Assembly: GCA_964399475.1 (NCBI GenBank)
Contig: CAYNRB010000001.1
Coordinates: 1 to 53,998, forward strand
Source of the DNA: an uncultured Methylomarinum sp.
GTDB taxonomy: Bacteria > Pseudomonadota > Gammaproteobacteria > Methylococcales > Methylomonadaceae
DNA: 53,998 nucleotides
Direction of reading: 5' to 3'
This document shows, one piece after another, positions 17,357 to 37,117 of this stretch. The position numbers and the translations under genes are program-made. Every line of letters begins with the position of its first letter. The stretch's first letter is position 1. The notes below the pieces were generated by a model. It saw only the letters and a list, made by a program, of their open reading frames with translations, did not search any database and was not told the origin of the DNA.

Positions 17357-17520
17357 TAAGGGAGCTGGAAAACAATAATCACCCATTATTGGGCAGGATT
17401 TTTGTTTGTCTTTGATCGTGCAGCAATAGGCGCATAGCAGGCTATGTAACTGTTGCTGCACGATCAAAGACAGACAAAAAGACCAGCAAGATTGGATGAT
17501 TATTTTTTTCCATCTCCCTA
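17357..17520 (+). repeat. long-hairpin repeat element (LHE) copy 1, MITE/REP-like
   Basis: About 164 bp. Outer arms TAAGGGAGCTGGAAAA.. / ..TTCCATCTCCCTA. Conserved bulge motifs TTGGGCAGGATTTTTGT and ACAAAAAGACCAGCAAGATT. Inner 24-bp stem and conserved apical loop GGCGCATAGCAGGCTATGTAAC. Confidence 0.85.
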
Positions 17521-17608
17521 ATAGAAATTATAGAGACATAAAACGATAGTTACCTCTCTATTCAGAATAATTAAATAGTAACAGTAAATTAACGATAAAG
17601 ATGCAGAT

Positions 17609-18964
17609 ATGTTTGATAATTTAACCGATCGATTAAGCGGCACCCTTAAAAATTTAAAAGGTCAAGGAAAACTGACTGAAAGCAATATCAAAGATACCTT
17701 GAGCGAAGTCCGCATGGCTTTGCTTGAAGCTGATGTAGCTTTGCCTGTTGTTACTGATTTTATTGAACAGGTAAAAGAAGGTGCGCTGGGTAAACAAGTT
17801 CAACTTAGCTTAAACCCAGGCCAGGCATTAACTAAACTGGTTCAGTCCGAATTAGTTAAGGTAATGGGTCAGGCTAATGAGGAATTGAATCTTAAAACCA
17901 ATCCTCCTGCGGTAATACTAATGGCGGGCTTACAAGGCGCAGGTAAAACAACCACTGTTGCCAAATTAGGTCGTTGGTTAAAACAAACTCAAAAGAAAAA
18001 AGTCGGCGTGGTCAGTGCCGATGTTTATCGCCCAGCAGCGATAAAACAACTACAAACATTAGCAGATGATCTCGATCTGGTATTTTTTGAAAGTGACAAC
18101 TCCCAAAAGCCTGTGGATATAGCGGTTAATGCAATTGAAGCGGCCAAGAAACAATTTCTTGATGTTGTTATCGTCGATACTGCGGGTCGCTTGCATGTTG
18201 ATGAAGAAATGATGGGGGAGATTAAAGCTTTACATGCCGCCATTAATCCGGTTGAAACATTGTTTGTAGTTGACAGTATGACCGGACAGGATGCAGCAAA
18301 TACAGCTAAAGCATTCAATGATGCACTTCCTCTAACCGGGGTTATATTAACCAAAGCCGATGGTGATGCACGTGGCGGTGCTGCATTATCCATCAGACAT
18401 ATCACCGGCAAACCTATTAAATTTATAGGTACGGGTGAAAAGTCAGATGCTTTGGAACCTTTTCATCCAGATCGTATTGCTTCCCGTATTTTAGGTATGG
18501 GCGATATGCTGACGCTGATTGAAGAGATTGAGCAAAAAGCAGATAAGAAAAAATCCGAAAAACTAGCCAGGAAAATCAGTAAAGGAAAAGGTTTTGATCT
18601 GAGCGATTTCAAAGACCAGTTATTACAGATGCAAAATATGGGTGGCGTTGGAGCAATGATGGATAAATTGCCTGGTATGGGCGATGTCTCGCAAGGCGTA
18701 AAAGATAAAATTAATGATAAAGAGTTAGCCCGACAAATTGCCGTAATCAATTCAATGACACTTAAGGAAAGACGCTATCCAGATTTAATAAAGGGTAATC
18801 GAAAAAAACGTATTGCGGCTGGCTGCGGACAACAGTTGCAAGATGTAAATAGAATTCTTAAGCAGCATAAAATGATGCAGAAGATGATGAAAAAGTTTGC
18901 AAAAGGCAATATGGCAAATATGTTGCGCGGTCTTAAAAGTAATATGCGTGGAATGAGAATGTAG
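17609..18964 (+). CDS. ffh: signal recognition particle protein Ffh
   Basis: 451 aa. Has the N domain, GTPase motifs (GLQGAGKTTT, DTAGR, TKADGDARGGAALS) and a Met-rich M domain (MQNMGGVGAMMDKLPGMG). Confidence 0.97.
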   Translation: MFDNLTDRLSGTLKNLKGQGKLTESNIKDTLSEVRMALLEADVALPVVTDFIEQVKEGALGKQVQLSLNPGQALTKLVQSELVKVMGQANEELNLKTNPPAVILMAGLQGAGKTTTVAKLGRWLKQTQKKKVGVVSADVYRPAAIKQLQTLADDLDLVFFESDNSQKPVDIAVNAIEAAKKQFLDVVIVDTAGRLHVDEEMMGEIKALHAAINPVETLFVVDSMTGQDAANTAKAFNDALPLTGVILTKADGDARGGAALSIRHITGKPIKFIGTGEKSDALEPFHPDRIASRILGMGDMLTLIEEIEQKADKKKSEKLARKISKGKGFDLSDFKDQLLQMQNMGGVGAMMDKLPGMGDVSQGVKDKINDKELARQIAVINSMTLKERRYPDLIKGNRKKRIAAGCGQQLQDVNRILKQHKMMQKMMKKFAKGNMANMLRGLKSNMRGMRM

Positions 18965-18985
18965 AGCAGACTTCAGTCCGCTATG
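18961..18985. repeat. short REP-like hairpin (GTAGAGCAGACTTCAGTCCGCTATG) overlapping the ffh stop codon
   Basis: Same family as 7582, 19361 and 30215. Possible terminator or mRNA-stabilising hairpin. Confidence 0.65.
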
Positions 18986-19140
18986 CTTTTAAGTGTGGAA
19001 TGAAAAAGAAATAGTAGAAGTTATTGAATATAATTTTAATCATAAAGTAAATCAGTCCTAGAGAAAAGCTGGTGCTACTCTTTATTTTACTTTAGTATTT
19101 TCATGGCATTCCATAGGTAATATTATGAGTTTATTATATT

Positions 19141-19304
19141 TAGGGAGCTGGAAATAAATAATCATCCATTATTGGGCAGGATTTTTGTTTGTCTTTGATC
19201 GTGCAGCAATAGGCGCATAGCAGGCTATGTAACTGTTGCTGCACGATCGAAGACGGACAAAAAGACCAGCAAGATTGGGTGATTATTTTTTTCCAGCTCC
19301 CTTA
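19141..19304 (+). repeat. LHE copy 2 (near-identical to copy 1)
   Basis: Aligns base-for-base with 17357-17520 apart from a handful of substitutions. Same orientation. Confidence 0.9.
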
Positions 19305-19360
19305 CTTTCATTTTCTGATTAAACATTATCCTTAATTTACAGGGTACATGTGACTTCATA

Positions 19361-19387
19361 GCGGACTAAAGTCCGCTCTACATGACT
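19361..19387. repeat. short REP-like hairpin (CATAGCGGACTAAAGTCCGCTCTACATG), inverted relative to the 18961 copy
   Basis: Reverse complement of the GTAGAGCGGAC..GTCCGCTATG family. Confidence 0.65.
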
Positions 19388-19547
19388 TTTCTGAGACTAC
19401 AAAGTGCACTCAAGCAGCCTGCTTTACTCCCAAACAATGCCCACAACAACTTTATTTATCTTTGATTTTAAATTTACCCTTCACATATCAAAAAATTCGC
19501 GTAGAATAGGCGGATTGAATTTTGATTGAATATTTTAAGGTATTTAC

Positions 19548-19799
19548 ATGGTAACTATTCGTCTTGCAAGAGGTGGTGCAAAAAAACGTCCATTTTATCA
19601 CGTTGTCGTTACTGACAGCAGAAACAGCCGTGATGGTCGTTATATAGAACGATTAGGTTTCTTTAACCCTTTTGCTCGTGGAAACGAAGAAAGACTACGT
19701 TTAGACGATGAGCGCATTGATTATTGGAAATCTGTGGGCGCCCAACCTTCTGAACGCGTTTCTAGACTGATAAAAGATGCTCATAAAGCAGTAGCTTAA
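19548..19799 (+). CDS. rpsP: 30S ribosomal protein S16
   Basis: [41 protein letters not shown] is the canonical S16 N-terminus. Confidence 0.97.
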
Positions 19800-19804
19800 G
19801 CATT

Positions 19805-20317
19805 TTGCCAGACAGCGAGTTTATAACTGCAGGTGAAATTTCTGGCGTTTTCGGTGTAAAAGGCTGGGTTAAAGTTTTTTCCTTTACTGATCCGAGAGAA
19901 AACATATTTGATTATTCTCCCTGGATCTTAAAAAGCAAAAATGCAACTCAAGTCGTTAAAGTCGTTAAAGGACAACGACAAGGCAAGGGACTGGTTGCCT
20001 GCTTAGACGGAGTTACTCATAGAGATGAGGCCGCTGCTTTTTGTGGCTATGAAATCCTTATCAGAAAAAACCAACTTCCTGAAACAGCAAAGGATGAATT
20101 TTACTGGTCTGATCTTATTGGTTTAAAGGTTGAAACAGATCAAGGTATTAAGCTAGGTATAGTTGATCACCTTATAGAAACGGGGGCAAATGATGTTCTG
20201 GCAATTAAGGATGATGAAAATATCGAACGATTAATTCCATTCTTGCAAGATCAAGTCATTAAAAAAATTGACCTTAACAAGAGTTTGATAATCGTTGACT
20301 GGGATCCAGATTTTTAA
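19805..20317 (+). CDS. rimM: 16S rRNA processing protein RimM
   Basis: 170 aa. Motifs GVFGVKGWVKVFSFTDPRENIFDY, FYWSDLIGLKV and LIPFLQDQVIKKIDL..IVDWDPDF. The track start is TTG. Position in rpsP-rimM-trmD-rplS is conserved. Confidence 0.93.
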   Translation: MPDSEFITAGEISGVFGVKGWVKVFSFTDPRENIFDYSPWILKSKNATQVVKVVKGQRQGKGLVACLDGVTHRDEAAAFCGYEILIRKNQLPETAKDEFYWSDLIGLKVETDQGIKLGIVDHLIETGANDVLAIKDDENIERLIPFLQDQVIKKIDLNKSLIIVDWDPDF

Positions 20318-20339
20318 TTAATCAGCTTCCGATAACTCT

Positions 20340-21095
20340 ATGCAATTTGATGTAGTCACACTTTTTCCAGAGATGATTCTGGGAGCTGCAAGCCATGGCG
20401 TAACTGGCAAAGCATTTGAAAAAAAGCAGGCTAAATTAACCACCTGGAACCCTAGAGATTATACCAACGATAAATATCAAACTGTTGATGATCGTCCCTA
20501 TGGTGGGGGGCCGGGAATGGTAATGAAATACCAGCCCTTATGTGATGCGGTCAATGCAGCAAAAGCAGCAAATAGAAATTTGAAAAGTCGGGTTATTTAT
20601 TTGAGCCCGCAAGGCAAGCCAATTACTCAGAAAATGTTAATTGAAGCCAGCCAAACTCAGACATCTCAGCTCATATTAGTAGCTGGTCGTTATGAAGGTA
20701 TTGATGAACGTTTCATTAATACTATATGTGATGAAGAATGGTCTTTGGGTGATTACGTTATCAGTGGTGGTGAATTAGCTGCTCTGGTTGTTATTGATGC
20801 AATAACCCGATTGATTCCGGGTGTTCTGGGCGACAAGGATTCTGCAAATCAGGATTCATTTATGCATGGTCTCTTAGACACACCTCATTACACACGACCA
20901 GAACAGGGGGCATTAGGATCGGCACCTGATGTACTATTGAGCGGACATCATAAGATGATTGAACGTTGGAGAATGAAACAGGCTTTAGGACGTACAGCAC
21001 TAAGAAGACCTGATTTATTAAAGAATAAAGAATTAAGCGCAGAACAGGAAGTTTTGCTGGAAGAATTTAAGAACGAGCTACAAAAAACGAATTAA
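20340..21095 (+). CDS. trmD: tRNA (guanine37-N1)-methyltransferase TrmD
   Basis: [12 protein letters not shown]..., [24 protein letters not shown] and [20 protein letters not shown] are TrmD signatures. Confidence 0.97.
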
Positions 21096-21196
21096 CTCAT
21101 TCAGGTTATTTAATACGCCCCAGAAAACAGGCGATTTTTTTTGATAGTAATCACTTAATATTCCGTATTATAAGTTTATGTATATAGGGCGTGGAA

Positions 21197-21544
21197 ATGA
21201 CAAATATTATTGATATAGTAAATGCGGAACAGCTGAAAACAGATGTTCCTACTTTTGGACCAGGTGACACTGTAGTTGTGCAGGTCAAGGTAAAGGAAGG
21301 AGATCGCGAGAGATTTCAGGCCTATGAAGGTGTAGTGATTGCAAAACGTAATCGTGGACTTAACTCTTCATTTACGGTTAGAAAAATATCCCATGGCGTA
21401 GGTGTAGAACGTGTTTTCCAAACACATAGCAAACAAGTTGGTGACATTACTGTTAAGCGACGTGGCGCAGTACGCAGAGCTAAACTGTATTATCTACGTA
21501 ATTTGACTGGAAGAGCTGCACGTATCAAAGAAAAACTGGGATAA
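21197..21544 (+). CDS. rplS: 50S ribosomal protein L19
   Basis: [55 protein letters not shown] is the L19 core. ATG 21197 is preferred over the GTG at 21191 in the track. Confidence 0.95.
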
Positions 21545-21562
21545 TTTATTTTCCTTTAAAAA

Positions 21563-21590
21563 AAGGTAGCTTTTAAGTTGCCTTTTTTTT
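21563..21590 (+). terminator. Rho-independent terminator of the rpsP operon
   Basis: AAGGUAGC-uuuuaa-GUUGCCUU stem (includes G-U pairs) followed by a T6+ run, 19 nt after the rplS stop. Confidence 0.6.
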
Positions 21591-21846
21591 GGCTTTTTTT
21601 TAGTTTTCCAGAGATTCAGAACACCTGATCCCCTATAATAAAATCAATATCTTGTAGATGAATACAAGAACATAAAATGAGACCAAAAGGGAGGTTGAGT
21701 AAGATTTTTGAGCGTAGCAAGAAAACGTAACCCAATATTCATGGCATGATGGGTGGCTTTTATCGTTTACAATTCTTAGCCTCAGCCTTTTTTAGGTATC
21801 AAATACATTTCCGTGAATCAGGCGATCTAAAATTAAACTAGAACGC

Positions 21847-21936
21847 TTAGGAGTGGGAATTAAATAATATCCGAAAGCTTTTCTAATGCTTTAGTGCAAA
21901 TCAAGATTCGGATATTATCTAATCCTGTCCCCTTAA
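21847..21936 (+). repeat. truncated LHE copy (outer arms only, about 90 bp)
   Basis: TTAGGAGTGGGAATTAAATAATATCCGAAAG ... CAAGATTCGGATATTATCTAATCCTGTCCCCTTAA. Keeps the outer stem and the CAAGATT motif of the 23.3-kb and 30.4-kb copies but lacks the inner stem and loop. Confidence 0.7.
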
Positions 21937-22072
21937 CCCAAGCAGCCTCTAATAAATTCAATCCCAATACATTTGATATTATCAATAAAGCAATGGGAAT
22001 TGATTTACTACTAGCGAAAAAGAACAAACAACTGCGTTATAATACACAAGTTTTTTCAAACCCTACTCCCAA

Positions 22073-22960
22073 ATGAAAACTTCTTTTCATCAGATAGATT
22101 TATTTTTGGATTCATTGTGGGCTGAATCTGGTTTAAGTAAAAATACTCTATTAGCCTATGGAAGTGATTTAACGATTTTTGCTAAATGGCTAAAAGAAAA
22201 ATCTTTATTTGAAGTCGATGAAAGTGATGTTGCATTATTCCTGGCAAGCAGATACAAACAAGGAATAGGTAGCCGCTCATCTGCCCGTATTTTATCTAGT
22301 TTGCGTCGTTTCTATGGTTATCTACATAGGGAAGCTTCTATTGAAATAGACCCCACACTTTTAATTGACTCACCCCATGTAGGAAAATTATTACCTGAAT
22401 CATTATCAGAAAACGATATTGATATATTGCTTGATGCACCTGAAACCACAGAATATCTGGGATTTAGAAACAAGACAATGCTAGAAATTCTTTATGCGAC
22501 AGGGCTGAGAGTATCTGAATTAGTGGGTCTAAAATTTGAACAAATAAATTTCAGACAGGGCTTTGTCAGGGTTTTAGGAAAAGGCAGCAAAGAAAGATTA
22601 GTCCCCATCGGTGAACAAGCAATGAGCTGGCTGACAGAATACATGGAAGGCGCACGAGAAAATATCTTAAAGGGCAAGCAAAGTGATTTTCTTTTTGTCA
22701 CTAAACGCGGTACAGGCATGACTCGCCAGGCATTTTGGCATATCATCAAAGGCTATGCTAAAAAAGCTGACATTAATAAACCGCTTTCTCCACACACTTT
22801 AAGGCATGCTTTTGCCACCCATATACTCAATCGTGGAGCTGACTTACGAGTAGTCCAATTATTATTAGGTCATTCAGACTTATCTACCACCCAGATTTAT
22901 ACGCATATCGCTCAAGAACGGTTAAAATCACTCCATAGTAAATTTCATCCCAGAGGTTAA
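22073..22960 (+). CDS. xerD: site-specific tyrosine recombinase XerD
   Basis: 295 aa. Motifs LEILYATGLRVSELVGL, HTLRHAFATHILNRGADLRVVQLLLGHSDLSTTQIYTH and the XerD-type N-terminus (LWAESGLSKNTLLAYGSDL). Confidence 0.9.
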   Translation: MKTSFHQIDLFLDSLWAESGLSKNTLLAYGSDLTIFAKWLKEKSLFEVDESDVALFLASRYKQGIGSRSSARILSSLRRFYGYLHREASIEIDPTLLIDSPHVGKLLPESLSENDIDILLDAPETTEYLGFRNKTMLEILYATGLRVSELVGLKFEQINFRQGFVRVLGKGSKERLVPIGEQAMSWLTEYMEGARENILKGKQSDFLFVTKRGTGMTRQAFWHIIKGYAKKADINKPLSPHTLRHAFATHILNRGADLRVVQLLLGHSDLSTTQIYTHIAQERLKSLHSKFHPRG

Positions 22961-23269
22961 TTCTGAATTTGCAACCCACTCACATTGCAGTGACTGACAA
23001 CCCCCCCCCAAAGTGATTATTTTTATGAGCCATTTTTATCCTCTTCGGAATTTTAAAAAATTGTTATAACATAGACCTCAATAATTGTTCTTTTATTTCT
23101 AACCCACACATATCATTGTGTTAGCCGAAACGAATCAATAATTATGTATATAAACATTAAAATAATAGTCGCGGACATCTAGAAATCAGTACCCATGCTC
23201 ATACGAAACCACTAAAGATCACATTTTATTCCCCAATATATCGACATTAACATCATGACAAACTAAACT

Positions 23270-23434
23270 TAGGAGTGAGGATTTAATAATATCCGAAAGT
23301 TTGGCGCAGGATTTTTGTCCGTCTTCTGTGTTGTAGAAATGAGCGCATAGCAGGCTACGTAACTATTTCTACAACACAGAAGACTGACAAAAAAACAAGT
23401 CAAGATTCGGATATTATTAAATCCTCGCTCCTTA
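23270..23434 (+). repeat. LHE copy 3 (variant B)
   Basis: Outer arms TTAGGAGTGAGGATTTAATAATATCCGAA / TTCGGATATTATTAAATCCTCGCTCCTTA. Same bulge motifs (GGCGCAGGATTTTTGT, ACAAAAAAACAAGTCAAGATT) and loop (GAGCGCATAGCAGGCTACGTAAC). A different, self-complementary inner stem (GTCTTCTGTGTTGTAGAAAT). Confidence 0.85.
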
Positions 23435-23522
23435 GCTCTACTGCTCCTAATATTTATTGGATCTAGTTTAGTTTTTAATATCAATTTCCCAAACGCCCTT
23501 TTGTACGAGGAATTAAAGTTAA

Positions 23523-28929: not shown

Positions 28930-30186
28930 ATGTTTAAAAAGTCCATGACCATAGCGGGTTTTGATAATGAATTATTTCAAGCCATGGAAGACGAACGTCA
29001 GCGCCAGGAAGACCATATTGAGCTAATTGCATCAGAAAACTATACTAGCCCTCGTGTTATGGAAGCGCAAGGCTCGCAATTGACCAATAAATATGCCGAA
29101 GGCTATCCGTCAAAACGTTATTATGGTGGCTGTGAGTTTGTAGATAAAGCTGAGCAATTAGCCATCGACCGTGTTAAAGAGTTGTACGGTGCAGACTATG
29201 CCAATGTGCAACCTCATTCCGGTTCACAAGCGAATATGGCTGTATACATGGCATTAGTTCAACCGGGAGATACTATTCTTGGTTTAAGTTTGGCTGATGG
29301 TGGTCACTTAACTCATGGCGCCAAACCTAATTTTTCTGGTAAAATCTACAATTCCATTCAGTATGGACTCCATCCTGATACAGGTGAAATTGATTATGAT
29401 CAAGTGGAAGCCTTAGCACTAGAGCATAAACCAAAAATGATTGTTGCCGGGTTTTCTGCCTATTCAAGAATTTGCGATTGGCAACGTTTTAGGGACATTG
29501 CTGACAAAGTAGGGGCTTATCTTTTTGTTGATATGGCGCATGTTGCTGGATTAATTGCAGCCGGTATATACCCTAACCCCGTTCCTTTTGCAGATGTTGT
29601 TACCAGCACAACGCATAAATCATTACGTGGCCCCAGAGGCGGCTTTATTATTTGTAAAAGCAACCCTGAATTAGAGAAAAAATTTAACTCCAATATTTTT
29701 CCAGGTATTCAGGGCGGCCCATTGATGCATGTCATTGCAGCCAAAGCTGTTGCTTTTAAAGAAGCTATGTTGCCAGAATTTGCACAATATCAGCAACAAG
29801 TAGTCCTTAATGCCCAGGCTATGGCCAGTGTTTTCATCAATCGTGGATTTGATGTCGTTTCGGGTGGCACTGACAATCACCTCATGTTGGTTTCCTTAAT
29901 ACCTAAAGGTATAACGGGAAAAGCGGCTGATGCTGCCCTAGGTAAAGCTCATATTACTGTCAATAAAAATGCTGTTCCTAACGACCCCGAATCACCTTTT
30001 GTTACCAGTGGAATTCGAGTGGGAACCCCAGCTCCAACATCACGAGGCTTTAAAGTCCCTCAGGTGACAGAAATCGCAAATATGATGTGTGATGTAATGG
30101 AAAATATGGACGATGAAAAAGTAATTTCTGCAGTACGTGACAAGGTTAGCCTGCTTTGTTCTCGCTTCCCTGTATACAGTGATTAA
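28930..30186 (+). CDS. glyA: serine hydroxymethyltransferase
   Basis: 418 aa. Motifs [44 protein letters not shown] and [14 protein letters not shown] (PLP Lys). Confidence 0.97.
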
Positions 30187-30214
30187 TCATCATTTTCGCT
30201 TACCTTCCGACAAT

Positions 30215-30236
30215 GTAGAGCGGACTTCAGTCCGCT
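30215..30236. repeat. short REP-like hairpin (GTAGAGCGGACTTCAGTCCGCT) 29 nt after the glyA stop
   Basis: Perfect 7-bp stem AGCGGAC/GTCCGCT with loop TTCA, followed by TTTCAATT. May act as a terminator or attenuator. Confidence 0.65.
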
Positions 30237-30388
30237 TTCAATTCACCATCATGGAAGACAATGTTCTGCATTACGAAAAACTAATAATAATGACAGAATG
30301 CACTGTATAGCAACCTGGATATTTATGAAAGATTCACAGGTTTATTATCACAAATTACCAAACTAATTTTACAGAACTACAAAACCTT

Positions 30389-30553
30389 TAAGGAGTGAGG
30401 ATTTAATAATATCCGAAAGTTTGGCGCAGGATTTTTGTTCGTCTTCAAGGCGTAGAAACGGGCGCATAGCGAGCTATGCAACTGTTTCTACAACGCAGAA
30501 GACGGACAAAAAGACAAGCCAAGATTCGGATATTATTAAATCCTCGCTCCTAA
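30389..30553 (+). repeat. LHE copy 4 (variant B, inner stem partly degraded)
   Basis: Outer arms identical to copy 3. Loop is GGGCGCATAGCGAGCTATGCAAC. The left inner arm carries mismatches. Confidence 0.85.
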
Positions 30554-30712
30554 GGTGGCTTCCAACAATAAATATGCCAGAATTGCGTAGGATTTTTGTT
30601 TCTGATTAAACAATCTCAAGAGGCGCATAGTTATTCTACGTAACGATTGAGATTGTTTGATCAGGAACAAAAAGACAAGAAAGTTTGGACTATTTATTGT
30701 TGGAAACCACCT
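30553..30712 (+). repeat. LHE copy 5 (variant C), abutting copy 4
   Basis: Outer arms AGGTGGCTTCCAACAATAAATA / TATTTATTGTTGGAAACCACCT. Bulge motifs GCGTAGGATTTTTGT and ACAAAAAGACAAGAAAGTTT. Loop GAGGCGCATAGTTATTCTACGTAAC. A third, self-complementary inner stem (CTGATTAAACAATCTCAA). Confidence 0.85.
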
Positions 30713-30748
30713 AAATGTATAAGAAAACTCAAATAACAGGAAATTACA

Positions 30749-32422
30749 ATGTCTGATATCGAAATCGCTCAAAAGGCAGAAATGAAACCTATTATTGATT
30801 TAGTCAAAGAAAAGTTTGGCATTCCAGCTGAACACATGGATCCTTATGGCCATTACAAAGCAAAAGTATCATTAGAATATCTGGACAGTTTAACGGATAG
30901 AAATGAAGGCAAGTTGATTTTAGTTACCGCTATCAGCCCCACACCTGCTGGCGAAGGTAAAACCACAACAACGGTAGGTTTAGGCGATGCAATGAATCGC
31001 CTTGGCAAGAAAACCATGATGTGTTTACGTGAACCTTCACTTGGGCCCTGTTTTGGTATGAAAGGTGGTGCCGCTGGTGGAGGATATTCTCAAGTAGTAC
31101 CCATGGAAGATATTAACTTACATTTTACCGGTGATTTTCACGCCATTGGAGTTGCCCACAACCTATTGGCAGCACTAATTGATAACCATATCAACCATGG
31201 TAATGAATTAGGAATAGACCCAAGAAGAATTCAGTGGAAACGTGTGGTGGATATGAATGACCGTGCCTTACGTAAAATTACGGTCGGCCAAGGTGGCCCA
31301 GCCAATGGATATTTACGAGAAGACGGTTATGATATTGTGGTGGCCTCTGAGGTTATGGCTATATTATGTCTAGCAACGAGTCGTTCGGATTTAAAAGAAC
31401 GTTTAGGGCGTATTGTAGTAGCCTACAAAGCAGATCTAAAAACACCTATCTATGCTAGTGACTTAAATGCTCAAGGCGCGATGGCAGCATTATTAAAAGA
31501 TGCTATTAAACCCAACTTTGTACAAACGTTGGAAAATAATGTGGTTATTGTGCACGGTGGCCCCTTTGCCAATATTGCACATGGCTGCAATACCGTTACC
31601 GCAACCAAAACAGCATTAAAACTGGCTGATTACACTATTACTGAAGCAGGATTTGGTGCAGACCTAGGTGCTGAAAAATTCATTAATATTAAATGTCGCA
31701 TGGCAGGCTTAAAACCTTCTGCGGTTGTTTTGGTTGCAACCATTCGCGCATTGAAATTCCATGGAGGTATCAACAAAGAAGATTTAAACAAGGAAAATCT
31801 TGCCGCATTAGAGCAAGGGTTTGTTAATCTTGAACGTCATTTAGAAAATATCACCAGTAATTATGGATTGCCTTGTATTATTTGCATCAATCACTTTAGT
31901 TTCGATACAGATGCGGAAATCAGATTATTAATAGAAAAATGCAAAGCCATTGGAGCAATATGTGTAGTTTCAAAACATTGGGCTGAAGGAGGAATAGGTG
32001 CGGAACAATTAGCAAAAGAAATCATTAATATCGTAGATAACAGGGAGCCAGGATGTAGTTTTGTCTATGATAATGATATGACGCTTTGGAGCAAAATGGA
32101 AGCTATATCCACTAAAATTTATGGCGCAAGCGGAATAACAGCAAGCCCTAAAATTCGTCAGGAAATTGAAGCCTTACAAGAAAAATACGGAAAATTCCCA
32201 GTTTGCATGGCTAAAACTCAAATGAGTTTTTCAACTGACCCTACAGTTAAAGGTGCACCCTCAGGTCATACAGTAGAAATCAGCGAAGTAAAACTGGCTA
32301 ACGGTGCTGGTTTTATTGTAGCGATAGCCGGAAACATGATGACCATGCCAGGATTACCCAAAATACCTGCTGCTGAACGTATTGATATTACTAATGAAGG
32401 TAAAATTACGGGGTTATTCTAG
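30749..32422 (+). CDS. fhs: formate--tetrahydrofolate ligase
   Basis: 557 aa. Motifs [42 protein letters not shown] and [13 protein letters not shown]. Confidence 0.97.
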
Positions 32423-32456
32423 TATTCCTGTCATATTGTTTTGTTGGATATGATAC

Positions 32457-32609
32457 TTTGCGCGGTTAGGGTTGCGGAATTCTAGCGGTCGGTTTTTGCC
32501 GATAAACTAAATTTCTGAAACAGTTGCACCGCTCATATGTGCCCGTACGTACCAGCACGTTGCTATCAGCAAAAACAACTCGCTTATTCTGCAACCGTGA
32601 CTGCGTAAT
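32457..32609 (+). repeat. divergent LHE-like long hairpin (variant D)
   Basis: Outer arms TTTGCGCGGTTAGGGTTGCGGAAT / ATTCTGCAACCGTGACTGCGTAA. Inner arms GCGGTCGGTTTTTGCCGATA / TATCAGCAAAAACAACTCGC. The apical region contains ..GTACGTACC, resembling the ..CTACGTAAC loop. Confidence 0.6.
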
Positions 32610-32671
32610 GTATATGCCTGACTCAAAATACCATCTTAGAACCAGAATAACATATCATTTAAATACACCAA

Positions 32672-32959
32672 TTAAATTACTGTAAAAGTCATTGCAAAAA
32701 TAAAAACAAAAATAACAAAAAGTGTAAACATTGCCCTTTTACTTAGTGAGCTTTTGAAATCCTCATATTGTGAGGATAATTCTTCTTTTTTGTCTTCCGC
32801 AAATATGATTTTTTTTAACTTACCTTTAAGCGTGTTTTTATCTCTTTCAGCTTCTTCCCTGGCAAGAATCTCGTCAATTTTAGAATTTAATCCCCCACAG
32901 TTTTGACATCTGGCCTCCGAATTGTCACGAGGATGACCACATTGGCTACACTGACTCAT
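32672..32959 (-). CDS. zinc-ribbon protein with C-terminal TM anchor
   Basis: 95 aa. Has CSQCGH..x11..CQNCGG (two CxxC pairs), a charged helical linker and a C-terminal hydrophobic helix (MFTLFVIFVFIFAMTFTVI). Lies 10 nt downstream of the kinase gene, so it is probably co-transcribed. Confidence 0.55.
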   Translation of the reverse strand: MSQCSQCGHPRDNSEARCQNCGGLNSKIDEILAREEAERDKNTLKGKLKKIIFAEDKKEELSSQYEDFKSSLSKRAMFTLFVIFVFIFAMTFTVI

Positions 32960-32969
32960 TTGTAATTCC

Positions 32970-34679
32970 TTAGTTTAAATATAAAAGTATTTTCTGAAAA
33001 TAACTACTTATTACGATTATGGCAGTTATTGCTAGTGATATCACTAGCCAACCCATTATTTTTTTTCTTTTGGCGAATTTTTGATCCCTAAGCGCATTTT
33101 CAATGGCTCTTTGTTTTGCCCATTTTTGAGTATTAGCCTCTTCTATTATCAGTTTTTGATGGTATTCAAGTAAGCTATCAATTTCATCTAATACTTGTCC
33201 CATATTATTTTGTCTGGAAAGCGGCAACCAATTTACCATTTTTTCTACCATTTTAGTTAGCTGCTCTGGCAAATCTGAAAATTTTGAAGTCACTGAGATT
33301 TTCTTATTTTTCCATTGAGGCAATGCACCTGTTAGCAATTGATATAGAATGATTCCTACTGAATAGATATCAGTACGCTTGGTTTTTACTTCACTTTGTA
33401 ATTTATACCAATTTCTAATGCCACTTTTTTGATAATGCGCATCAAGTCCAAAGTCTGTAAGCTTTATTAAGCCATTTTCATCATAAAGTACATTGCTAGG
33501 TCTCAGATTACCATGGATAAGATTATTTTGATGTGCAAAGGCCAACCCCATACAAATTTCCCGCACAGTCTTTAATGCCTCATTCCATGGACTTGCAATA
33601 ATTAACCGATCCTGTAATGCACCTCCGTTCAAATATTCCATGACAATAATATAGGATCGGTCATTTTTAGAAGTCCCATAGATTTTGGCAATATTCTTAT
33701 GGACTAGTGATTTTAGCAAATTTGTTTCATTAAAACCTTTACTCCAAATAGGTCTTTTTTTAATAATCAGCAGATTATTATCATTTTTATTTTCATATAA
33801 GTAAATAGCACTTTGCTTTTCTTCTTGTATAACATCCAATAAAGAAAATCGTGTTTTAAGGTTAGAAATTCCTTGTTCTGCTCGTTGTTTTTGTTCGTTT
33901 TTTAAATGGGTACCGCGGAGTAATTTCAGCAAAACATCTTTAACAATATCTACAGAAACAGGCCTGCTGTCTGGTTCCATATTGAGACACTGTAAAATTA
34001 TTTTATCTAATAAGGGATCAATTCCTGCGACATATTCAGAGGGTGACACAATATCGCCAGTTGGCTGTTGCCCCGCAAATAGAACGTACATAACAACCCC
34101 TAGAGAGTATATGTCACTCAGTTCAGTTACATCTGAAGATGAAATTTGCTGCTCTGGTGACATATAGCCCAATGTACCCATCAACAATTTGTCTGATGTT
34201 GTTGCATGATTGATATCGCAAAACTGGGCAATACCAAAATCTAGAACATGAGCATGAAACTCCCTATCTATAAAAATATTAGCGGGTTTAATATCTCTAT
34301 GGATTACGCCATTTTTATGCGCATAACTCAGCGCTTTACAGACCTGGATTATAATTTCCAGTTTTTTTATAATTTCTAGACTTCCCAATTGAATAAATTT
34401 CGCTAGATCCTGTCCTTCTAGATACTCCATAATAAAATAGGGTGTTTTGTCAGACAATAAACCACGATCTATAACATGGATTACATGGGGGTGATTCAAC
34501 TGTGCAATAATATACGACTCGCGTTCAAACAAATTTATCACTAATGGTTGATCTGCCAATTGTTGATGAATAACTTTGATCGCTACTTTTCGTTTAAGTG
34601 AGTTCTGTATACCTTGGTATACAGTTGCCATTCCACCAGTACCTATAGTCTCAATAATTGTATAACCAGGAATTTGCAT
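32970..34679 (-). CDS. membrane-anchored Hanks-type Ser/Thr protein kinase with a second, pseudokinase-like domain
   Basis: Domain 1 has GTGGMATVY, VAIKVI, HRDIKPANIF, DFGIA and GTLGYMSPE. Domain 2 (about aa 280-500) has LIHGNLRPSNVL, where HRD is replaced by HGN, plus TDFGL. C-terminal TM is WLVISLAITAIIVISSYF. Confidence 0.85.
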   Translation of the reverse strand: MQIPGYTIIETIGTGGMATVYQGIQNSLKRKVAIKVIHQQLADQPLVINLFERESYIIAQLNHPHVIHVIDRGLLSDKTPYFIMEYLEGQDLAKFIQLGSLEIIKKLEIIIQVCKALSYAHKNGVIHRDIKPANIFIDREFHAHVLDFGIAQFCDINHATTSDKLLMGTLGYMSPEQQISSSDVTELSDIYSLGVVMYVLFAGQQPTGDIVSPSEYVAGIDPLLDKIILQCLNMEPDSRPVSVDIVKDVLLKLLRGTHLKNEQKQRAEQGISNLKTRFSLLDVIQEEKQSAIYLYENKNDNNLLIIKKRPIWSKGFNETNLLKSLVHKNIAKIYGTSKNDRSYIIVMEYLNGGALQDRLIIASPWNEALKTVREICMGLAFAHQNNLIHGNLRPSNVLYDENGLIKLTDFGLDAHYQKSGIRNWYKLQSEVKTKRTDIYSVGIILYQLLTGALPQWKNKKISVTSKFSDLPEQLTKMVEKMVNWLPLSRQNNMGQVLDEIDSLLEYHQKLIIEEANTQKWAKQRAIENALRDQKFAKRKKIMGWLVISLAITAIIVISSYFQKILLYLN

Positions 34680-34760
34680 GCTTTTGTTTGAGAAATAACT
34701 AAATATAATTTATGAGTATCATTTATTATAGAATCAATACTAATAAAACGGGTAGAAATA

Positions 34761-35561
34761 ATGCAGAAAAATATATTTAATAAATATACTGCGACGGGAA
34801 TAACTGATGTTGGATGTGTGCGTAAACACAATGAAGATACCTACCTCATAGATAAGAAACTTGGCTTATTATTGGTAGCAGATGGAATGGGAGGTCATGA
34901 AGCTGGTGAAGTAGCTAGCAAAGAATCTATACGAATCATTCTGCAAATGCTTCGTATGCAACAGCCTGTTGAAGAAAATAAATCATGGTTTTATCGATTA
35001 CTACGCCTGTTTCAACATGATGATGTAGACACCCATGAAGAAGAAGATCATTTGGAAAAGGCTTTATTCGAAGCAAATAACTACATATTCCAACTGAACA
35101 TGGAAAGGGGAGCGCCTAGTGGCACAGGAATGGGCACCACCCTTGCTGGCTGCTGGATAGTGAGGCCTGACTTAATGCTAGTATTTCATATTGGTGATAG
35201 CCGAGTTTATAGGCTTAGAAATGGAGAACTAAAATTAATAACAAAAGATCACTCAGTTTTGCAGGATTGGCATGATAATGGAAAAATCGGCGAGCAACCC
35301 AAATCAAACGTAATTAATCGGGCTGTAGGCCCCTACCAGACAGTTACGCCTGAAATACAGGTAATTGATATTCAAAATACCGACAGCTTTTTAATTTGTT
35401 CAGATGGCTTATCAGATATGGTTGATGATCAAGAAATTGAAAAACAACTAGAAGGTTTAAACGCTAGACAAATTGATAATTACTCCCATAAATTACTGAT
35501 TTCTGCCCTAGCACTAGGAGGGAATGACAATATTACAATTGTTTTGTTAACGCACGATTAA
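34761..35561 (+). CDS. PP2C-family Ser/Thr protein phosphatase
   Basis: 266 aa. Motifs TDVGCVRKHNEDTY, LLLVADGMGGHEAGEVAS, GTTLAG, ICSDGLSD and GGNDNITIVLL. Confidence 0.9.
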   Translation: MQKNIFNKYTATGITDVGCVRKHNEDTYLIDKKLGLLLVADGMGGHEAGEVASKESIRIILQMLRMQQPVEENKSWFYRLLRLFQHDDVDTHEEEDHLEKALFEANNYIFQLNMERGAPSGTGMGTTLAGCWIVRPDLMLVFHIGDSRVYRLRNGELKLITKDHSVLQDWHDNGKIGEQPKSNVINRAVGPYQTVTPEIQVIDIQNTDSFLICSDGLSDMVDDQEIEKQLEGLNARQIDNYSHKLLISALALGGNDNITIVLLTHD

Positions 35562-35718
35562 CTTTGCTAATTAATAACGATGACTCCCAGCAATCTGACC
35601 ATCTACTTTTTTACAAAGTTGATTTAGTCATAAATGTGCTATATTTCTATATCAACAGATGACTTTCAAACAAAAAATCCTCTTGTGTAATTGATTATAT
35701 AAAGTTAAACACCCAAGT

Positions 35719-36426
35719 TCAATCAGATGAAAATTTGATAAATAATTTTTTAATTCTGATTTCATCAGAGGGTATTAATAAGCAACTTGAACTAATCACA
35801 CTTCCATTCAAGGTTACTTTTTTCTTTTTCACTGGACTAATATAAAACGAATGACCCACTTTATCAATTTCTGCAATATGAGCTGCAGTAAAAAAACCAC
35901 CTATCCGAATATCATTCTTTTTTGCCTTTCCAATAGAGTAGCTATCTTTAGTCAATAGCATTTTTTTTATTCCATTTAAATCACCTTTTACGATTAAATA
36001 GAAACTCTTCTGCTTGATATCTGAAGCAGCTTGAGATGTACCGGGTCCAGAAACTTTTGAAGATGACACCATAATTACAGTAGCATCACTCGACTCTTGT
36101 ACTGATACTGGAGCAGAACTATTTTGCTGTATCTGACTCCATTCCGAAATCTTTAAAATATGTTTACCAATAGTAACCGAATCTTCAAAACGAATTTTTT
36201 GACGTGTGCTTATCTTTTGGCTATTTAGAAATGTACCATTCGAACTATTCAAATCTTCAATGGTATATTGTCCGTTACTTACACTTATTACAGCATGAAA
36301 ACTTGAAACGCCCATATTATTGATAACAACTTCATTACTAGATGCTCTTCCAATACTAACAGTAACAGTTTTAATGGGTAAAGACTGCTTTAAGACGCCA
36401 TTAAAATAAATTTCAAGATAATTCAT
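35719..36426 (-). CDS. protein with two FHA domains
   Basis: 235 aa. FHA-1: SIGRASSNEVVINNMGVSSFHAVISVSNGQYTIEDLNSSNGTFLNSQKI. Ser-rich linker. FHA-2-like: YSIGKAKKNDIRIGGFFTAAHIAEIDKVGHSFYISPV..KVTLNGSVI. Confidence 0.8.
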   Translation of the reverse strand: MNYLEIYFNGVLKQSLPIKTVTVSIGRASSNEVVINNMGVSSFHAVISVSNGQYTIEDLNSSNGTFLNSQKISTRQKIRFEDSVTIGKHILKISEWSQIQQNSSAPVSVQESSDATVIMVSSSKVSGPGTSQAASDIKQKSFYLIVKGDLNGIKKMLLTKDSYSIGKAKKNDIRIGGFFTAAHIAEIDKVGHSFYISPVKKKKVTLNGSVISSSCLLIPSDEIRIKKLFIKFSSD

Positions 36427-36513
36427 AAGTTCAAGACCTTTTCTAAAAGTAACTCTATAATAAATGCCTACGCTGGATTCGTCTAGATAACTTTTATACT
36501 CAGGTACATAATC

Positions 36514-36834
36514 ATGCTAGATCTATTTCTCATCACACTCTTGCTATTAATTGGTTTTTATTGGTCCAATTCCATGAAAGCACGTGAAATTGCTTTTATC
36601 GCAGTAACCTCACACTGCCGAAAACTAGGCGTACAATTATTAGATGAATATGTTGCCTTGAATGGATTATGGTTTAAGGTAAATAGAGAAGGGGGAATTA
36701 GTGCTTGGCGATCCTATCTATTTGAATTCACTTCTACTGGAAATGATCGCTATAACGGTAAAATAATTATGCTAGGTGATAAAATATTAAATATTGAGAT
36801 GGATCCCTATAAAATTCTTGATGATGAATATTAA
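36514..36834 (+). CDS. DUF3301-like small membrane protein
   Basis: 106 aa. N-terminal TM, then the block AREIA...HC...LLD..VAL......R.......R.Y.FEF...G..RY.G typical of DUF3301. Confidence 0.55.
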   Translation: MLDLFLITLLLLIGFYWSNSMKAREIAFIAVTSHCRKLGVQLLDEYVALNGLWFKVNREGGISAWRSYLFEFTSTGNDRYNGKIIMLGDKILNIEMDPYKILDDEY

Positions 36835-36910
36835 TTTAGCATAATAATAGCCACTAACTTTCATATATTCAATGACTTACTAACTAGATCAATAGAAAAA
36901 CTGATTAGTT

Positions 36911-37117
36911 TGGTGGTTTGACGAAACAAAATCACCAACCTTGCTTGTCTTTTTGCTCCTGATCAAACGATCTTAATCGTTTCGTAGAAATGACTTTGCA
37001 CCTCTTGTGAAATAGTTCGGTCTAGGTCAGGATCCCCTAGGTAGAATAATACATGAGCAATTTTCAAGAAATAAAAATCCTGCGCAATCTTGGTAACTTT
37101 ATTCCGTCAAATCACCT
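36911..37117 (-). repeat. LHE copy in reverse orientation, degenerate and enlarged (about 205 bp)
   Basis: The reverse complement carries ACCAAGATTGCGCAGGATTTTT, CAAGAGGTGCAAAGTCATTTCTACGAAACG (loop homologue) and CAAAAAGACAAGCAAGGTT. Outer arms GGTGGTTTGACG / CGTCAAATCACC. Holds an extra ~45 bp insert. Confidence 0.65.

What the first reader, a model, noticed from the sequence alone, without database searches (positions are those of the whole stretch)
17357..37117. Family of ~90-205 bp long-hairpin repeats with conserved loop and bulge motifs and co-varying stems
**Seen in sequence.**
- Copies lie at 17357-17520, 19141-19304, 21847-21936 (truncated), 23270-23434, 30389-30553, 30553-30712, 32457-32609 (divergent) and 36911-37117 (reverse, degenerate).
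- Loop-like fragments lie at 7694-7737 and 21701-21733.
- All full copies share these motifs: ..GCAGGATTTTTGT.., the apical GGCGCATAGCAGGCTAyGTAAC, ..ACAAAAAGAC.AGC.AAGATT.., and TAAGGAG-like termini.
- The inner stems differ completely between variants:
  - TTTGATCGTGCAGCAA in copies 1 and 2;
  - TTCTGTGTTGTAGAAA in copy 3;
  - CTGATTAAACAATCTCAA in copy 5.
- In copies 1, 2, 3 and 5 each inner stem stays complementary to its own partner arm. The outer arms also switch as matched pairs.

**Inference.** Selection appears to act on structure plus specific unpaired motifs. This is the signature of a structured RNA, or of a hairpin recognised by a DNA-binding enzyme such as a REP-associated tyrosine transposase. 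It does not look like a simple decaying MITE. No transposase is present in the window.
Basis: partly seen in the sequence, partly recalled or inferred. Interest (0 to 1): 0.7.

Follow-up and report, generated by a model that had tools for sequence, protein, structure and literature searches.

The report
Hairpin mini-transposons (MITEs) in a methanotroph
The repeats are real copies of a roughly 158-bp non-coding mobile element (a MITE) that inserts at TTA/TAA and duplicates those 3 bases; this is an ordinary kind of element, but the whole element is kept as a hairpin by compensatory changes and the same design recurs in MAGs assigned to several other bacterial phyla.

Summary
The window carries five full copies of 158-160 bp, all on the + strand. 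It also carries one 83-bp internally deleted copy, one degenerate copy and one distant relative. Each full copy folds into a near-perfect hairpin (-78 to -105 kcal/mol).

Covariation is strong. 39 of 51 pairs change on both sides, and 95% of cells are paired against 79% in shuffles.

- The ends are GG...CC inverted repeats.
- 94 of 121 copies are flanked by identical 3-bp direct repeats, mostly TTA or TAA.
- A filled/empty site pair and nested insertions show transposition.
- A site occupied in the window is unoccupied in relatives.

No Rfam family matches. No RAYT or other transposase lies in the window or next to copies. Nezha is excluded because its direct repeat is 10 bp.

Three features are unusual.
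- The internal core (AGGATTTTTGT...ACAAAAAGAC) and the ~158-bp length are conserved while the terminal repeats vary.
- The same design, with the same TWA duplication, occurs in MAGs assigned to several other phyla.
- G·U pairs outnumber A·C mismatches 5:1 in established lineages but only 1.3:1 in young variants. This points to selection on one folded strand.

The mobilising transposase was not found. An IS5-family enzyme is my guess.

The parts
17360..17518 (+). Full MITE copy 1. Terminal repeat type A (GGGAGCTGG...). The inner internal loop is converted to perfect pairing. Target duplication TAA at 17357-17359 and 17519-17521.
   Evidence: Covariance model 156 bits; fold -96 kcal/mol; ends and flanks.
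19143..19301 (+). Full MITE copy 2. Type A, 96% identical to copy 1. Target duplication TTA at 19140-19142 and 19302-19304, so it is an independent insertion.
   Evidence: Covariance model 159 bits; fold -106 kcal/mol; repeat family D4; ends.
21850..21932 (+). Internally deleted derivative of 83 bp. It keeps both type B terminal repeats and lacks the core. Flanked by TTA/TTA.
   Evidence: Covariance model 26 bits; sequence. Similar short derivatives occur elsewhere: L077 at 76 bp and L134/L159 at 53 bp.
23272..23431 (+). Full MITE copy 3. Type B (GGAGTGAGGATTT...). The internal loop is replaced by a 5' arm that is the exact reverse complement of the 3' arm. Target duplication TTA.
   Evidence: Covariance model 148 bits; fold -92 kcal/mol; ends.
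30392..30550 (+). Full MITE copy 4. Type B, with the canonical internal loop 5' AAGGC / 3' AACGCA. Target duplication TAA.
   Evidence: Covariance model 165 bits; fold -96 kcal/mol; ends.
30554..30711 (+). Full MITE copy 5. Type C-like (GGTGGCTTCC...). It was inserted into the TAA that flanks copy 4, giving a tandem pair that shares 30551-30553.
   Evidence: Covariance model 118 bits; fold -78 kcal/mol; ends. The same glyA-fhs spacer is 146-170 bp with no model hit in relatives.
32464..32602 (-). Distant relative of the family. It is a long hairpin with GG(G)TTGC.GAAT... ends and a GTTTTTGC/GCAAAAAC core. The strand assignment is weak.
   Evidence: Covariance model 27.8 bits on the - strand against 9.9 bits on the + strand; fold -62 to -69 kcal/mol.
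36912..37116 (-). Degenerate copy of 205 bp. The terminal repeats and both core halves are kept, the 5' inner arm is disrupted, and the flanks are TAA/AAA.
   Evidence: Covariance model 37 bits and 61 bits; sequence.

Best explanation
**What it is (shown).** These are copies of a non-autonomous DNA transposon, a MITE of about 158 bp. It has GG...CC terminal inverted repeats, inserts into TWA (TTA or TAA) and duplicates those 3 bp. It has multiplied in marine Methylococcales.

**Who moves it (inferred).** A DDE transposase encoded elsewhere moves it in trans. From the 3-bp TWA duplication and the GG/GA ends, the most likely source is an IS5-family enzyme of the IS1031/IS427 type, the bacterial relatives of PIF/Harbinger. 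No such partner was found.

**What the element looks like.** The whole element is one long hairpin built from modules:
- a variable terminal stem (at least five types, sharing GG + N8 + AATAAATAA);
- a conserved asymmetric internal loop, AGGA opposite GAC;
- a conserved T5GT/ACA5 helix;
- a variable helix;
- a second loop (AAGGC opposite AACGCA) that some lineages have converted to perfect pairing;
- an apical mini-hairpin.

**Why the hairpin is kept (inferred).** Lineages that keep multiplying are the ones whose top strand can fold. The fold, as single-stranded DNA or as RNA, or a cruciform, therefore seems to matter for propagation, and the conserved core is the likely protein-recognition part. 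Templated palindrome correction contributes some of the perfect pairing.
For: **Mobility**
- 94 of 121 copies have identical 3-bp direct flanks: TTA/TTA 55, TAA/TAA 33, plus TAT, TTG, CTT, TCA and TTT. Only 14 are TTA/TAA discordant. Binomial p = 4.5e-13.
- A filled/empty pair: caacTTG[GGGAGC..GCTCCC]TTGatgg in L016 against caacTTGgtgg in L104.
- A nested insertion into the apical GTTAC of another copy, with a TTA duplication.
- The glyA-fhs spacer is 562 bp with two copies in the window. It is 146-170 bp with no model hit in relatives whose FTHFS is 87-88% identical.
- Deletion derivatives keep both ends.

**Abundance**
- The model gave 306 matches counting both strands (roughly 170 distinct copies by my estimate) in 655 kb of Methylococcales loci.
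- Many contigs break at copies.

**Structure**
- 95.2% of cells are paired against 78.6% in shuffles.
- 39 of 51 pairs change on both sides, reached by 0 of 500 shuffles.
- Slid controls give 42-48% paired.

**Strand-specific selection**
- The top strand folds 14 kcal/mol better in 75 of 78 copies.
- Subfamily consensus states show G·U 176 against A·C 36. Young within-subfamily variants show 43 against 32. Fisher p = 1.6e-5.
- There is no orientation bias to genes (14 vs 14) or to GC skew that could explain this by mutation.

**One core, many ends**
- Types A, B and C occur together in this window.
- The scan recovered five types in all.

**Cross-phylum relatives**
- Copies of 158-167 nt with the same architecture and a TWA duplication occur in MAGs labelled Alphaproteobacteria, Christensenellales, Eggerthellaceae, Treponemataceae, Verrucomicrobiota and Saprospiraceae.
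- Lachnospiraceae copies have 4-bp flanks.
Against: - No autonomous element with matching ends was found. I looked in the window, in the 109 genome loci and in a metagenome scan aimed at type A ends without the MITE body.
- The transposases that did turn up have the wrong ends. They are an IS1634-family element inserted into a copy and IS3-family genes.
- The IS5-family assignment rests only on the duplication length, its sequence and the end bases.
- The second internal loop is dispensable. Lineages that lack it still multiplied (window copies 1 and 2; L018, L022, L023 and L059).
- The invariance of the core is partly imposed by my scan pattern and by the model. Divergent relatives with other cores exist (L030:5295-5453 and L011:158-329; window 32464-32602).
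- Some cross-phylum hosts are MAG bins and could be mis-binned.
- Nothing here shows whether the fold acts as DNA or as RNA.
Confidence: 0.8

Rival explanations
1. The elements are MITEs, but the 'covariation' is a by-product at the DNA level. Both ends must match one transposase, which gives co-evolving terminal repeats. Quasi-palindromes are also homogenised by intrastrand template switching during replication or repair. Under this reading there is no selection on a folded single strand.
For: - In window copy 3 the 5' arm (CTGTGTTG) is the exact reverse complement of the 3' arm (CAACACAG) at the place where most copies have a non-complementary loop. This looks like one templated conversion.
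- 21 two-sided changes occur within young subfamilies, against 116 one-sided changes. That is more than independent hits would give.
- Young variants show nearly equal G·U and A·C (43 vs 32, p = 0.25).
Against: - Template switching yields Watson-Crick pairs, not wobble pairs. Yet established lineages hold 176 G·U against 36 A·C, spread over 36 of 51 pair columns.
- Step-wise intermediates are visible. L037 has two G·T pairs where L049 is perfectly paired.
- The asymmetric loops are conserved rather than erased.
- Several end types coexist with one core in this window. Co-variation of the variable end positions would therefore need several transposases.
Confidence: 0.3
2. The hairpin is a functional structured RNA. 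It could be a small RNA, or a cis-acting stabiliser, terminator or processing site, spread by transposition and kept because it benefits the host or regulates the element.
For: - Strong covariation with G·U tolerance on one strand.
- Conserved unpaired motifs (AGGA and AAGGC loops) across all recovered copies.
- All five full copies in the window point the same way as the neighbouring genes.
- From my own knowledge: other bacterial MITEs (Correia, ERIC) act at the RNA level. PMC3733652 summarises such effects.
Against: - No Rfam family reaches threshold. The sub-threshold hits are generic microRNA-like hairpins.
- Across 83 copies, orientation relative to flanking genes is random (++ 14, -- 14, +- 11, -+ 9).
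- The occupied glyA-fhs site is empty in relatives.
- The consensus scan finds fewer promoter-like sites than in shuffles, and terminator-like sites at the shuffled level.
- Copies decay and suffer deletions (21850-21932, 36912-37116).
Confidence: 0.12
3. The hairpin would be the substrate of a structure-specific single-strand DNA enzyme, such as a RAYT or IS200/IS605-type HUH transposase or an integron-like integrase, as with REP/REPIN elements or attC sites.
For: - Structure is conserved while the stems vary.
- Asymmetric unpaired bases are conserved and there is a preferred strand. This resembles how attC sites and IS608 ends are read (my own knowledge).
Against: - The 3-bp target duplications and filled/empty sites are the mark of staggered cuts in double-stranded target DNA. 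HUH transposition and REP elements leave none.
- The elements are 158 bp, not 20-40 bp. They lack a GTAG or CGTC head (definition in PMC3733652).
- There is no RAYT or tnpA gene in the window or recurring next to copies.
- The elements are not arranged as cassette arrays.
Confidence: 0.05

Closest known systems
Tourist-type MITEs (e.g. mPing) of the PIF/Harbinger superfamily, and their bacterial relatives, the IS5 family (IS1031/IS427/ISL2 groups)
   Same: - A short non-coding element that folds as a hairpin.
- A 3-bp duplication of TAA/TTA. The mPing direct repeat is TAA (PMC6042816). Canonical Harbinger elements make 3-bp duplications and group with the IS5 family (PMC12730594).
- Ends that begin with GG or GA.
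   Different: - No IS5-family partner with matching ends was found.
- The terminal repeats vary between types while an internal core is conserved, which is the reverse of the usual pattern.
- That the IS1031 group makes 3-bp TNA duplications is my own recollection. I did not check it here.
Classical bacterial hairpin MITEs: Correia/NEMIS (Neisseria), ERIC (enterobacteria), RUP (pneumococcus)
   Same: - Size of 100-170 bp, intergenic location and high copy number.
- They fold into long stem-loops and are moved in trans.
- For several of them, effects of the transcribed hairpin are documented (PMC3184786; PMC3733652).
   Different: - Those elements duplicate TA and are linked to IS630-type enzymes (my own knowledge). 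This family duplicates 3 bp, TWA.
- The host range differs: marine methanotrophs plus scattered MAGs assigned to other phyla.
Nezha MITE of Anabaena/Nostoc
   Same: - Size of 130-170 bp.
- A very stable predicted hairpin.
- Reported horizontal spread beyond its phylum (PMC3184786; abstract recalled from memory).
   Different: Nezha has a 10-bp direct repeat (CATTATCTAC; PMC6042816). This family has 3 bp, so it is not a member.
REP/REPIN elements with RAYT transposases
   Same: Palindromic, intergenic and multi-copy, with structure mattering more than sequence.
   Different: REPs are 20-40 bp, carry a GTAG or CGTC head, make no target duplication and sit with a RAYT gene (PMC3733652). None of this holds here.

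Membership tests
Bacterial MITE (non-autonomous DDE-type transposon) | Short, non-coding, multi-copy and dispersed | tested here: met
   Length is 155-160 bp in 118 of 121 copies. The model gave 306 matches counting both strands (roughly 170 distinct copies by my estimate) in 655 kb. Copies are intergenic in the window.
Bacterial MITE (non-autonomous DDE-type transposon) | Terminal inverted repeats | tested here: met
   GG...CC ends pair over 20 bp or more. There are five end types.
Bacterial MITE (non-autonomous DDE-type transposon) | Target-site duplication of fixed length | tested here: met
   94 of 121 copies have identical 3-bp direct flanks, p = 4.5e-13. All six well-preserved window copies do too.
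Bacterial MITE (non-autonomous DDE-type transposon) | Insertion polymorphism (filled against empty sites) | tested here: met
   L016 against L104, and a nested insertion in L010. The glyA-fhs spacer lacks the elements in relatives.
Bacterial MITE (non-autonomous DDE-type transposon) | A cognate autonomous insertion sequence with the same ends | tested here: inconclusive
   None was found in the window, in 109 genome loci or in 62 metagenome loci. Whole genomes could not be scanned.
IS5-family / PIF-Harbinger-derived ('Tourist-like') MITE | 3-bp duplication with a TWA preference | tested here: met
   Both flanks are TWA in 102 of 121 copies: TTA/TTA 55, TAA/TAA 33 and 14 mixed. Reference values are in PMC6042816 and PMC12730594.
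IS5-family / PIF-Harbinger-derived ('Tourist-like') MITE | Ends shared with an IS5-family transposase gene carrier | not testable with these tools
   No IS5-family element was present in the held sequence.
Nezha | Direct repeat of about 10 bp and ISNpu3-like ends | tested here: not met
   The duplication here is 3 bp. Nezha's direct repeat is CATTATCTAC (PMC6042816).
REP/REPIN-RAYT | 20-40 bp palindrome with a GTAG/CGTC head, no duplication, linked RAYT gene | tested here: not met
   The element is 158 bp with GG ends and a 3-bp duplication. No such gene lies in the window.
IS200/IS605-derived palindromic elements (PATEs) | No terminal inverted repeats and no target duplication; subterminal hairpins | tested here: not met
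   Terminal inverted repeats and duplications are present.
Any described RNA family (Rfam 15) | Match at the family's gathering score | tested here: not met
   There were 0 hits in the window. Only microRNA-like hairpin noise appeared below threshold. Nothing matched on the cross-phylum copies.
Integron attC site | Sits at cassette boundaries in an array next to intI, with R/L boxes (GTTRRRY) | not tested
   I did not search for R/L boxes. The context (housekeeping genes ffh, rimM, trmD, rplS, glyA and fhs) and the target duplications argue against it.

The most novel reading that the evidence does not exclude
The family may be the visible part of a cross-phylum class of mini-transposons whose transposase reads a folded single strand rather than only double-stranded end sequences. 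What it would read is a hairpin of about 158 nt with the conserved AGGA/GAC loop and T5GT helix. The enzyme would nevertheless insert with a DDE-style 3-bp duplication. I know of no described transposition system that combines these two properties. An equivalent reading is that the top-strand transcript is an RNA cofactor or regulator of its own transposition.
Probability: 0.2. Interest if true: 0.75.

Novelty: new member of a known kind. Interest (0 to 1): 0.45.

Why it matters
**Practical consequences**
- This undescribed repeat family occupies many intergenic regions of marine methane-oxidising bacteria, including mussel symbionts.
- It breaks metagenome assemblies at its copies. It may also cause contigs to be mis-binned, though I did not test that.
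- It should be masked or modelled before anyone calls small RNAs in these genomes.

**Conceptual interest**
- It is a clean natural case in which a selfish DNA element shows RNA-like covariation.
- The contrast between young variants (G·U about equal to A·C) and established lineages (G·U five times A·C) separates mutation from selection.
- That contrast suggests the folded single strand is part of the element's life cycle.
- If so, the conserved core and length shared across the taxa recovered here point to an unrecognised recognition mode for a widespread transposase.

Tried and rejected
**Searches that found nothing relevant**
- Rfam at gathering and at E-value thresholds gave nothing real.
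- blastn of a copy against 72,556 plasmids gave no match.
- Literature searches by sequence words and by 'MITE + methanotroph' found no description.
- A scan of viral contigs gave 2 chance hits that lack the architecture.

**Known element families ruled out**
- Nezha has a 10-bp direct repeat.
- The Thiomargarita MITEs have a 10-bp or TATAG direct repeat.

**Search for the partner transposase**
- Recurring neighbour proteins are only ABC ATPases, GGDEF/EAL proteins and housekeeping genes.
- Paired ends 250-3000 bp apart gave only composites. One of them, in L020, is an IS1634-family element inserted into a copy, with its own ends and a 6-bp duplication.
- Half-elements and solo ends are truncated remnants next to host genes.
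- The metagenome scan for type A ends without the MITE body gave chance 17-mers, solo remnants and 53-bp mini-derivatives, but no transposase.

**Other ideas tested**
- The XerD-like gene at 22073-22960 lies between two type B copies. I judged it to be the housekeeping recombinase, because xerD lies near rplS in other gammaproteobacteria. That synteny is my own recollection and was not tested here.
- Orientation shows no bias to genes or to GC skew.
- Exact-sequence look-ups of window proteins found no source contig.
- The glyA-fhs spacers of relatives are too diverged to align base by base, so the exact empty site there is not defined.

Full report
**1. What is in the window**

The sequences at the reported coordinates are real repeats. 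Each full copy folds into one long, nearly perfect hairpin of about 160 nt, with minimum free energies of -78 to -105 kcal/mol. The apical 21-mer occurs four times within 3 mismatches, against none in 100 shuffles.

I built a covariance model from 58 copies and ran it without filters over the whole window.

| Coordinates | Strand | Size | Score | Note |
|---|---|---|---|---|
| 17360-17518 | + | 159 bp | 156 bits | full copy |
| 19143-19301 | + | 159 bp | 159 bits | full copy |
| 23272-23431 | + | 160 bp | 148 bits | full copy |
| 30392-30550 | + | 159 bp | 165 bits | full copy |
| 30554-30711 | + | 158 bp | 118 bits | full copy |
| 21850-21932 | + | 83 bp | 26 bits | internal deletion, both ends kept |
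| 36912-37116 | - | 205 bp | 37-61 bits | degenerate |
| 32464-32602 | best on - | 139 bp | 27.8 bits | distant relative |

The two 'loop-like fragments' at 7694-7737 and 21701-21733 belong to a different palindromic repeat.

The window comes from a Methylococcales methanotroph.
- It carries serine-cycle and H4MPT genes, the ffh-rimM-trmD-rplS cluster and flagellar genes, and its GC content is about 38%.
- The closest FTHFS homologues are Methylococcales, Methyloprofundus, Methylomarinum and Bathymodiolus symbionts.
- No ORF of at least 100 aa in the window is a transposase.

**2. The family elsewhere**

I scanned one genome per species for AGGATTTTTGT-N55-80-ACAAAAAGAC.
About 7 hits are expected by chance.
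- Most loci are from marine Methylococcales: Methyloprofundus, Methylomarinum, 'Methylomonas' MAGs and Bathymodiolus methanotrophic symbionts. Many matches lie at contig ends.
- Run over 655 kb of these loci, the model gave 306 matches counting both strands, which I estimate as about 170 distinct copies. Several loci hold four to six copies.

**3. They are transposons**

I set the element ends by homology, using the first and last model pair extended over G-C only. Nothing about the flanks entered that definition.
- 94 of 121 copies have identical 3-bp direct repeats on the two sides: TTA/TTA 55, TAA/TAA 33, and also TAT, TTG, CTT, TCA and TTT.
- Only 14 have one TTA and one TAA. If the flanks were part of the palindrome, the mixed pattern would be the rule. 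If the two sides were independent, 52% would be identical. Observed is 88 of 102, p = 4.5e-13.
- All six well-preserved window copies have such flanks. Copies 4 and 5 share one TAA, as expected if one inserted into the duplicated target of the other.

Direct evidence of insertion:
- **Filled against empty site.** L016 has caacTTG[GGGAGC...GCTCCC]TTGatgg where a paralogous copy of the host sequence in L104 has caacTTGgtgg.
- **Nested insertion.** One copy sits inside the apical GTTAC of another, with TTA duplicated. A second nested case is L127.
- **Occupied against unoccupied spacer.** The glyA-fhs spacer is 562 bp with two copies in the window. It is 146-170 bp, with no model hit within 6-7 kb, in relatives whose FTHFS is 87-88% identical.
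- **Deletion derivatives.** Short forms keep both ends: 83 bp in the window, 76 bp in L077 and 53 bp in L134 and L159.

These are the defining features of a MITE. A 3-bp TWA duplication with GG or GA ends is what PIF/Harbinger 'Tourist' elements make (mPing direct repeat TAA, PMC6042816; Harbinger 3 bp, grouped with the IS5 family, PMC12730594). From my own knowledge, the IS1031/IS427 groups of the bacterial IS5 family do the same.

**4. The covariation is real**

On a MAFFT alignment that was not fitted to any structure:
- 95.2% of cells form standard pairs, against 78.6% after shuffling partners;
- 39 of 51 pairs show changes on both sides, reached by 0 of 500 shuffles;
- sliding the partners by 1-3 columns drops pairing to 42-48%.

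Many pair columns hold three or four Watson-Crick types in comparable numbers.

Part of this is expected for any transposon, because the two ends must be recognised by the same enzyme. Two observations go beyond that.
- **Several end types, one core.** Three end types occur together in this window, and five were recovered in all: GGGAGCTGG.., GGAGCGAGG.., GGTGATTTCC.., GGTAACGCGC.. and GGAACGCGCAC... All share only GG, then N8, then AATAAATAA. Their variable positions still co-vary between the two ends.
- **Interior stems co-vary too.** These stems have no reason to be inverted repeats for a protein that binds the ends (helices 5-7).

**5. One strand matters**

- As RNA, the top strand folds on average 14 kcal/mol better than the bottom strand, in 75 of 78 distinct copies.
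- At the level of subfamily consensus sequences (39 clusters by 51 pairs) there are 176 G·U pairs and 36 A·C mismatches. G·U occurs at 36 of the 51 pair columns.
- Among young variants inside subfamilies the ratio is 43 to 32, which is not different from 1:1 (p = 0.25).
- The contrast between young and established states is significant (Fisher p = 1.6e-5).
- Orientation is unbiased relative to flanking genes (++ 14, -- 14) and to local GC skew (36 of 81 positive). A context-dependent mutation bias therefore does not explain it.

My reading is an inference. Mutations hit both strands alike, but lineages that go on to multiply are those in which the top strand can still fold. The fold could act as single-stranded DNA, as a cruciform or as RNA, and I cannot tell which.

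**6. Templated correction also happens**

Most copies, including those from other taxa, have a non-complementary internal loop: 5' AAGGC opposite 3' AACGCA.
- In window copy 3 the 5' side is the exact reverse complement of the 3' side (CTGTGTTG / CAACACAG), as if it had been copied from it.
- Window copies 1 and 2 and several Methyloprofundus lineages have this stretch fully paired with diverse sequences. Some carry G·T intermediates: L037 has two where L049 is perfect.
- This loop is therefore dispensable for multiplication.
- Both templated conversion and step-wise compensation seem to contribute.

**7. The same design in other phyla**

Some scan hits come from MAGs labelled Alphaproteobacteria (L042), Christensenellales (L040), Eggerthellaceae (L035), Treponemataceae (L057), Lachnospiraceae (L003, L064, L068), Oscillospiraceae (L043), Verrucomicrobiota (L065), Saprospiraceae (L011, L026, L030) and Burkholderiales.

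These are not chance matches.
- The full-length copies are 158-167 nt; L006 and L043 match the model only in part.
- They fold as one hairpin. They share the AGGA/GAC loop, the T5GT/ACA5 helix and a CAAGG / ACG(A/C)AG loop, and they end in an apical mini-hairpin.
- They are flanked by TWA duplications: L042 TAA, L035 TTA, L097 TAA, L057 TAA, L065 TAA and L030 TTA. The Lachnospiraceae copies have 4-bp TTAA or TTTA.
- Their terminal stems are unrelated in sequence.

Caveats:
- My pattern forced the core to be identical.
- More divergent relatives with other cores exist (L030:5295-5453, L011:158-329, window 32464-32602).
- MAG bins can be wrong.
- Rfam has no family for any of these.

**8. What I could not find**

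I found no autonomous partner.
- The transposases met in the loci have the wrong ends. One is an IS1634-family element with its own ends and a 6-bp duplication, inserted into a copy. The others are IS3-family genes.
- Searches for paired ends around an ORF, half-elements and solo ends gave only composites and truncated remnants.
- A metagenome scan for type A ends not followed by the MITE body gave chance matches, remnants and mini-derivatives.
- The IS5-family assignment is therefore a reasoned guess, at about even odds.

**9. Comparison with what is known**

- This is a MITE by every testable criterion except the identified partner.
- It is not Nezha, which has a 10-bp direct repeat.
- It is not one of the Thiomargarita MITEs.
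- It is not a REP/RAYT element or an IS200/IS605 derivative, which make no duplication.
- It is not in Rfam.
- I found no paper describing it. The library is incomplete, so I cannot exclude an entry in ISfinder or Dfam.
- Like Correia, ERIC and RUP, it is a hairpin-forming intergenic MITE.
- It differs from them in its 3-bp TWA duplication and in conserving an internal core and the overall length while the terminal repeats vary.

**10. Verdict**

It is a new family of a known kind. Its moderately interesting feature is evidence that one folded strand is part of the element's life cycle, in a design that recurs in MAGs assigned to several other phyla.

Noticed in passing
window 7577-7609, 18958-18990, 19348-19377, 30207-30244: A second repeat: a short GC-rich hairpin, (A)GAGCGGACTTCAGTCCGCT(C). 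Two copies sit right at or after gene ends (ffh stop at 18964, glyA stop at 30186). It looks like a REP-like or terminator-like element. It is unrelated to the MITE family.
   Followed up: partly
window 7688-7790 and 21687-21735: A third palindromic repeat, GGTTGGGTTA...CGATAACGTAACCCAACA paired with TGTTGGGTTACGTTAT. It is a separate family.
   Followed up: partly
window 3338-4639, 4698-7274, 10606-14697 (all - strand): Three flagellin paralogues of 433, 858 and 1363 aa lie beside fliD, flaG and fliS. The two long ones are 'giant' flagellins whose conserved N and C termini flank very large variable middles. Direct repeats D1, D3 and D11 are their shared ends.
   Followed up: no
L020 2444-4199 (Methylococcales MAG CBDCZY010000001.1): An IS1634-family insertion sequence has inserted into the 3' arm of a type B MITE copy. 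It has a 550-aa transposase with DUF4277 and DDE_Tnp_1 domains, ends CCGACATTCCGCATACC and a 6-bp duplication ATATCC.
   Followed up: yes
L016 about 6400-6640 (reverse strand) and L104 1278-1412: The host sequence of the filled/empty pair is itself another palindromic repeat, TAGGGTGGGCAATCTTTTCTGCCCACC...GGTGGGCAAAAAAACTGCCCACCCTA. It is present in several loci of the same MAG.
   Followed up: no
window 32970-36426 and 52066-53811: A Ser/Thr kinase, PP2C phosphatase and FHA-domain gene cluster. Separately, there is a protein that joins an FHA domain to multihaem cytochrome c motifs, next to other large multihaem cytochromes (38087-41878, 47161-48504).
   Followed up: no
L035, L057, L097: Nearly identical 158-nt copies (GTAATGATGAAAAAATAAGTTGG...) occur in bins labelled Eggerthellaceae and Treponemataceae and in a third record. 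This reflects either very recent horizontal transfer or mis-binned contigs.
   Followed up: no
L040 6420-6580 and 6723-6902 (- strand): In the Christensenellales contig the element lies just downstream of a cobalamin riboswitch (Rfam RF00174, 102 bits). It sits between the riboswitch and the transporter genes that the riboswitch presumably controls.
   Followed up: no
L084 (reverse strand, near 6010-6194) and L108 4172-4362: Two copies in different loci carry the same extra ~30 nt (…AAGGCCAGCA[T/C]GCCAGAGCTG…) inside the inner internal loop. This may be a still smaller element nested in the MITE.
   Followed up: no
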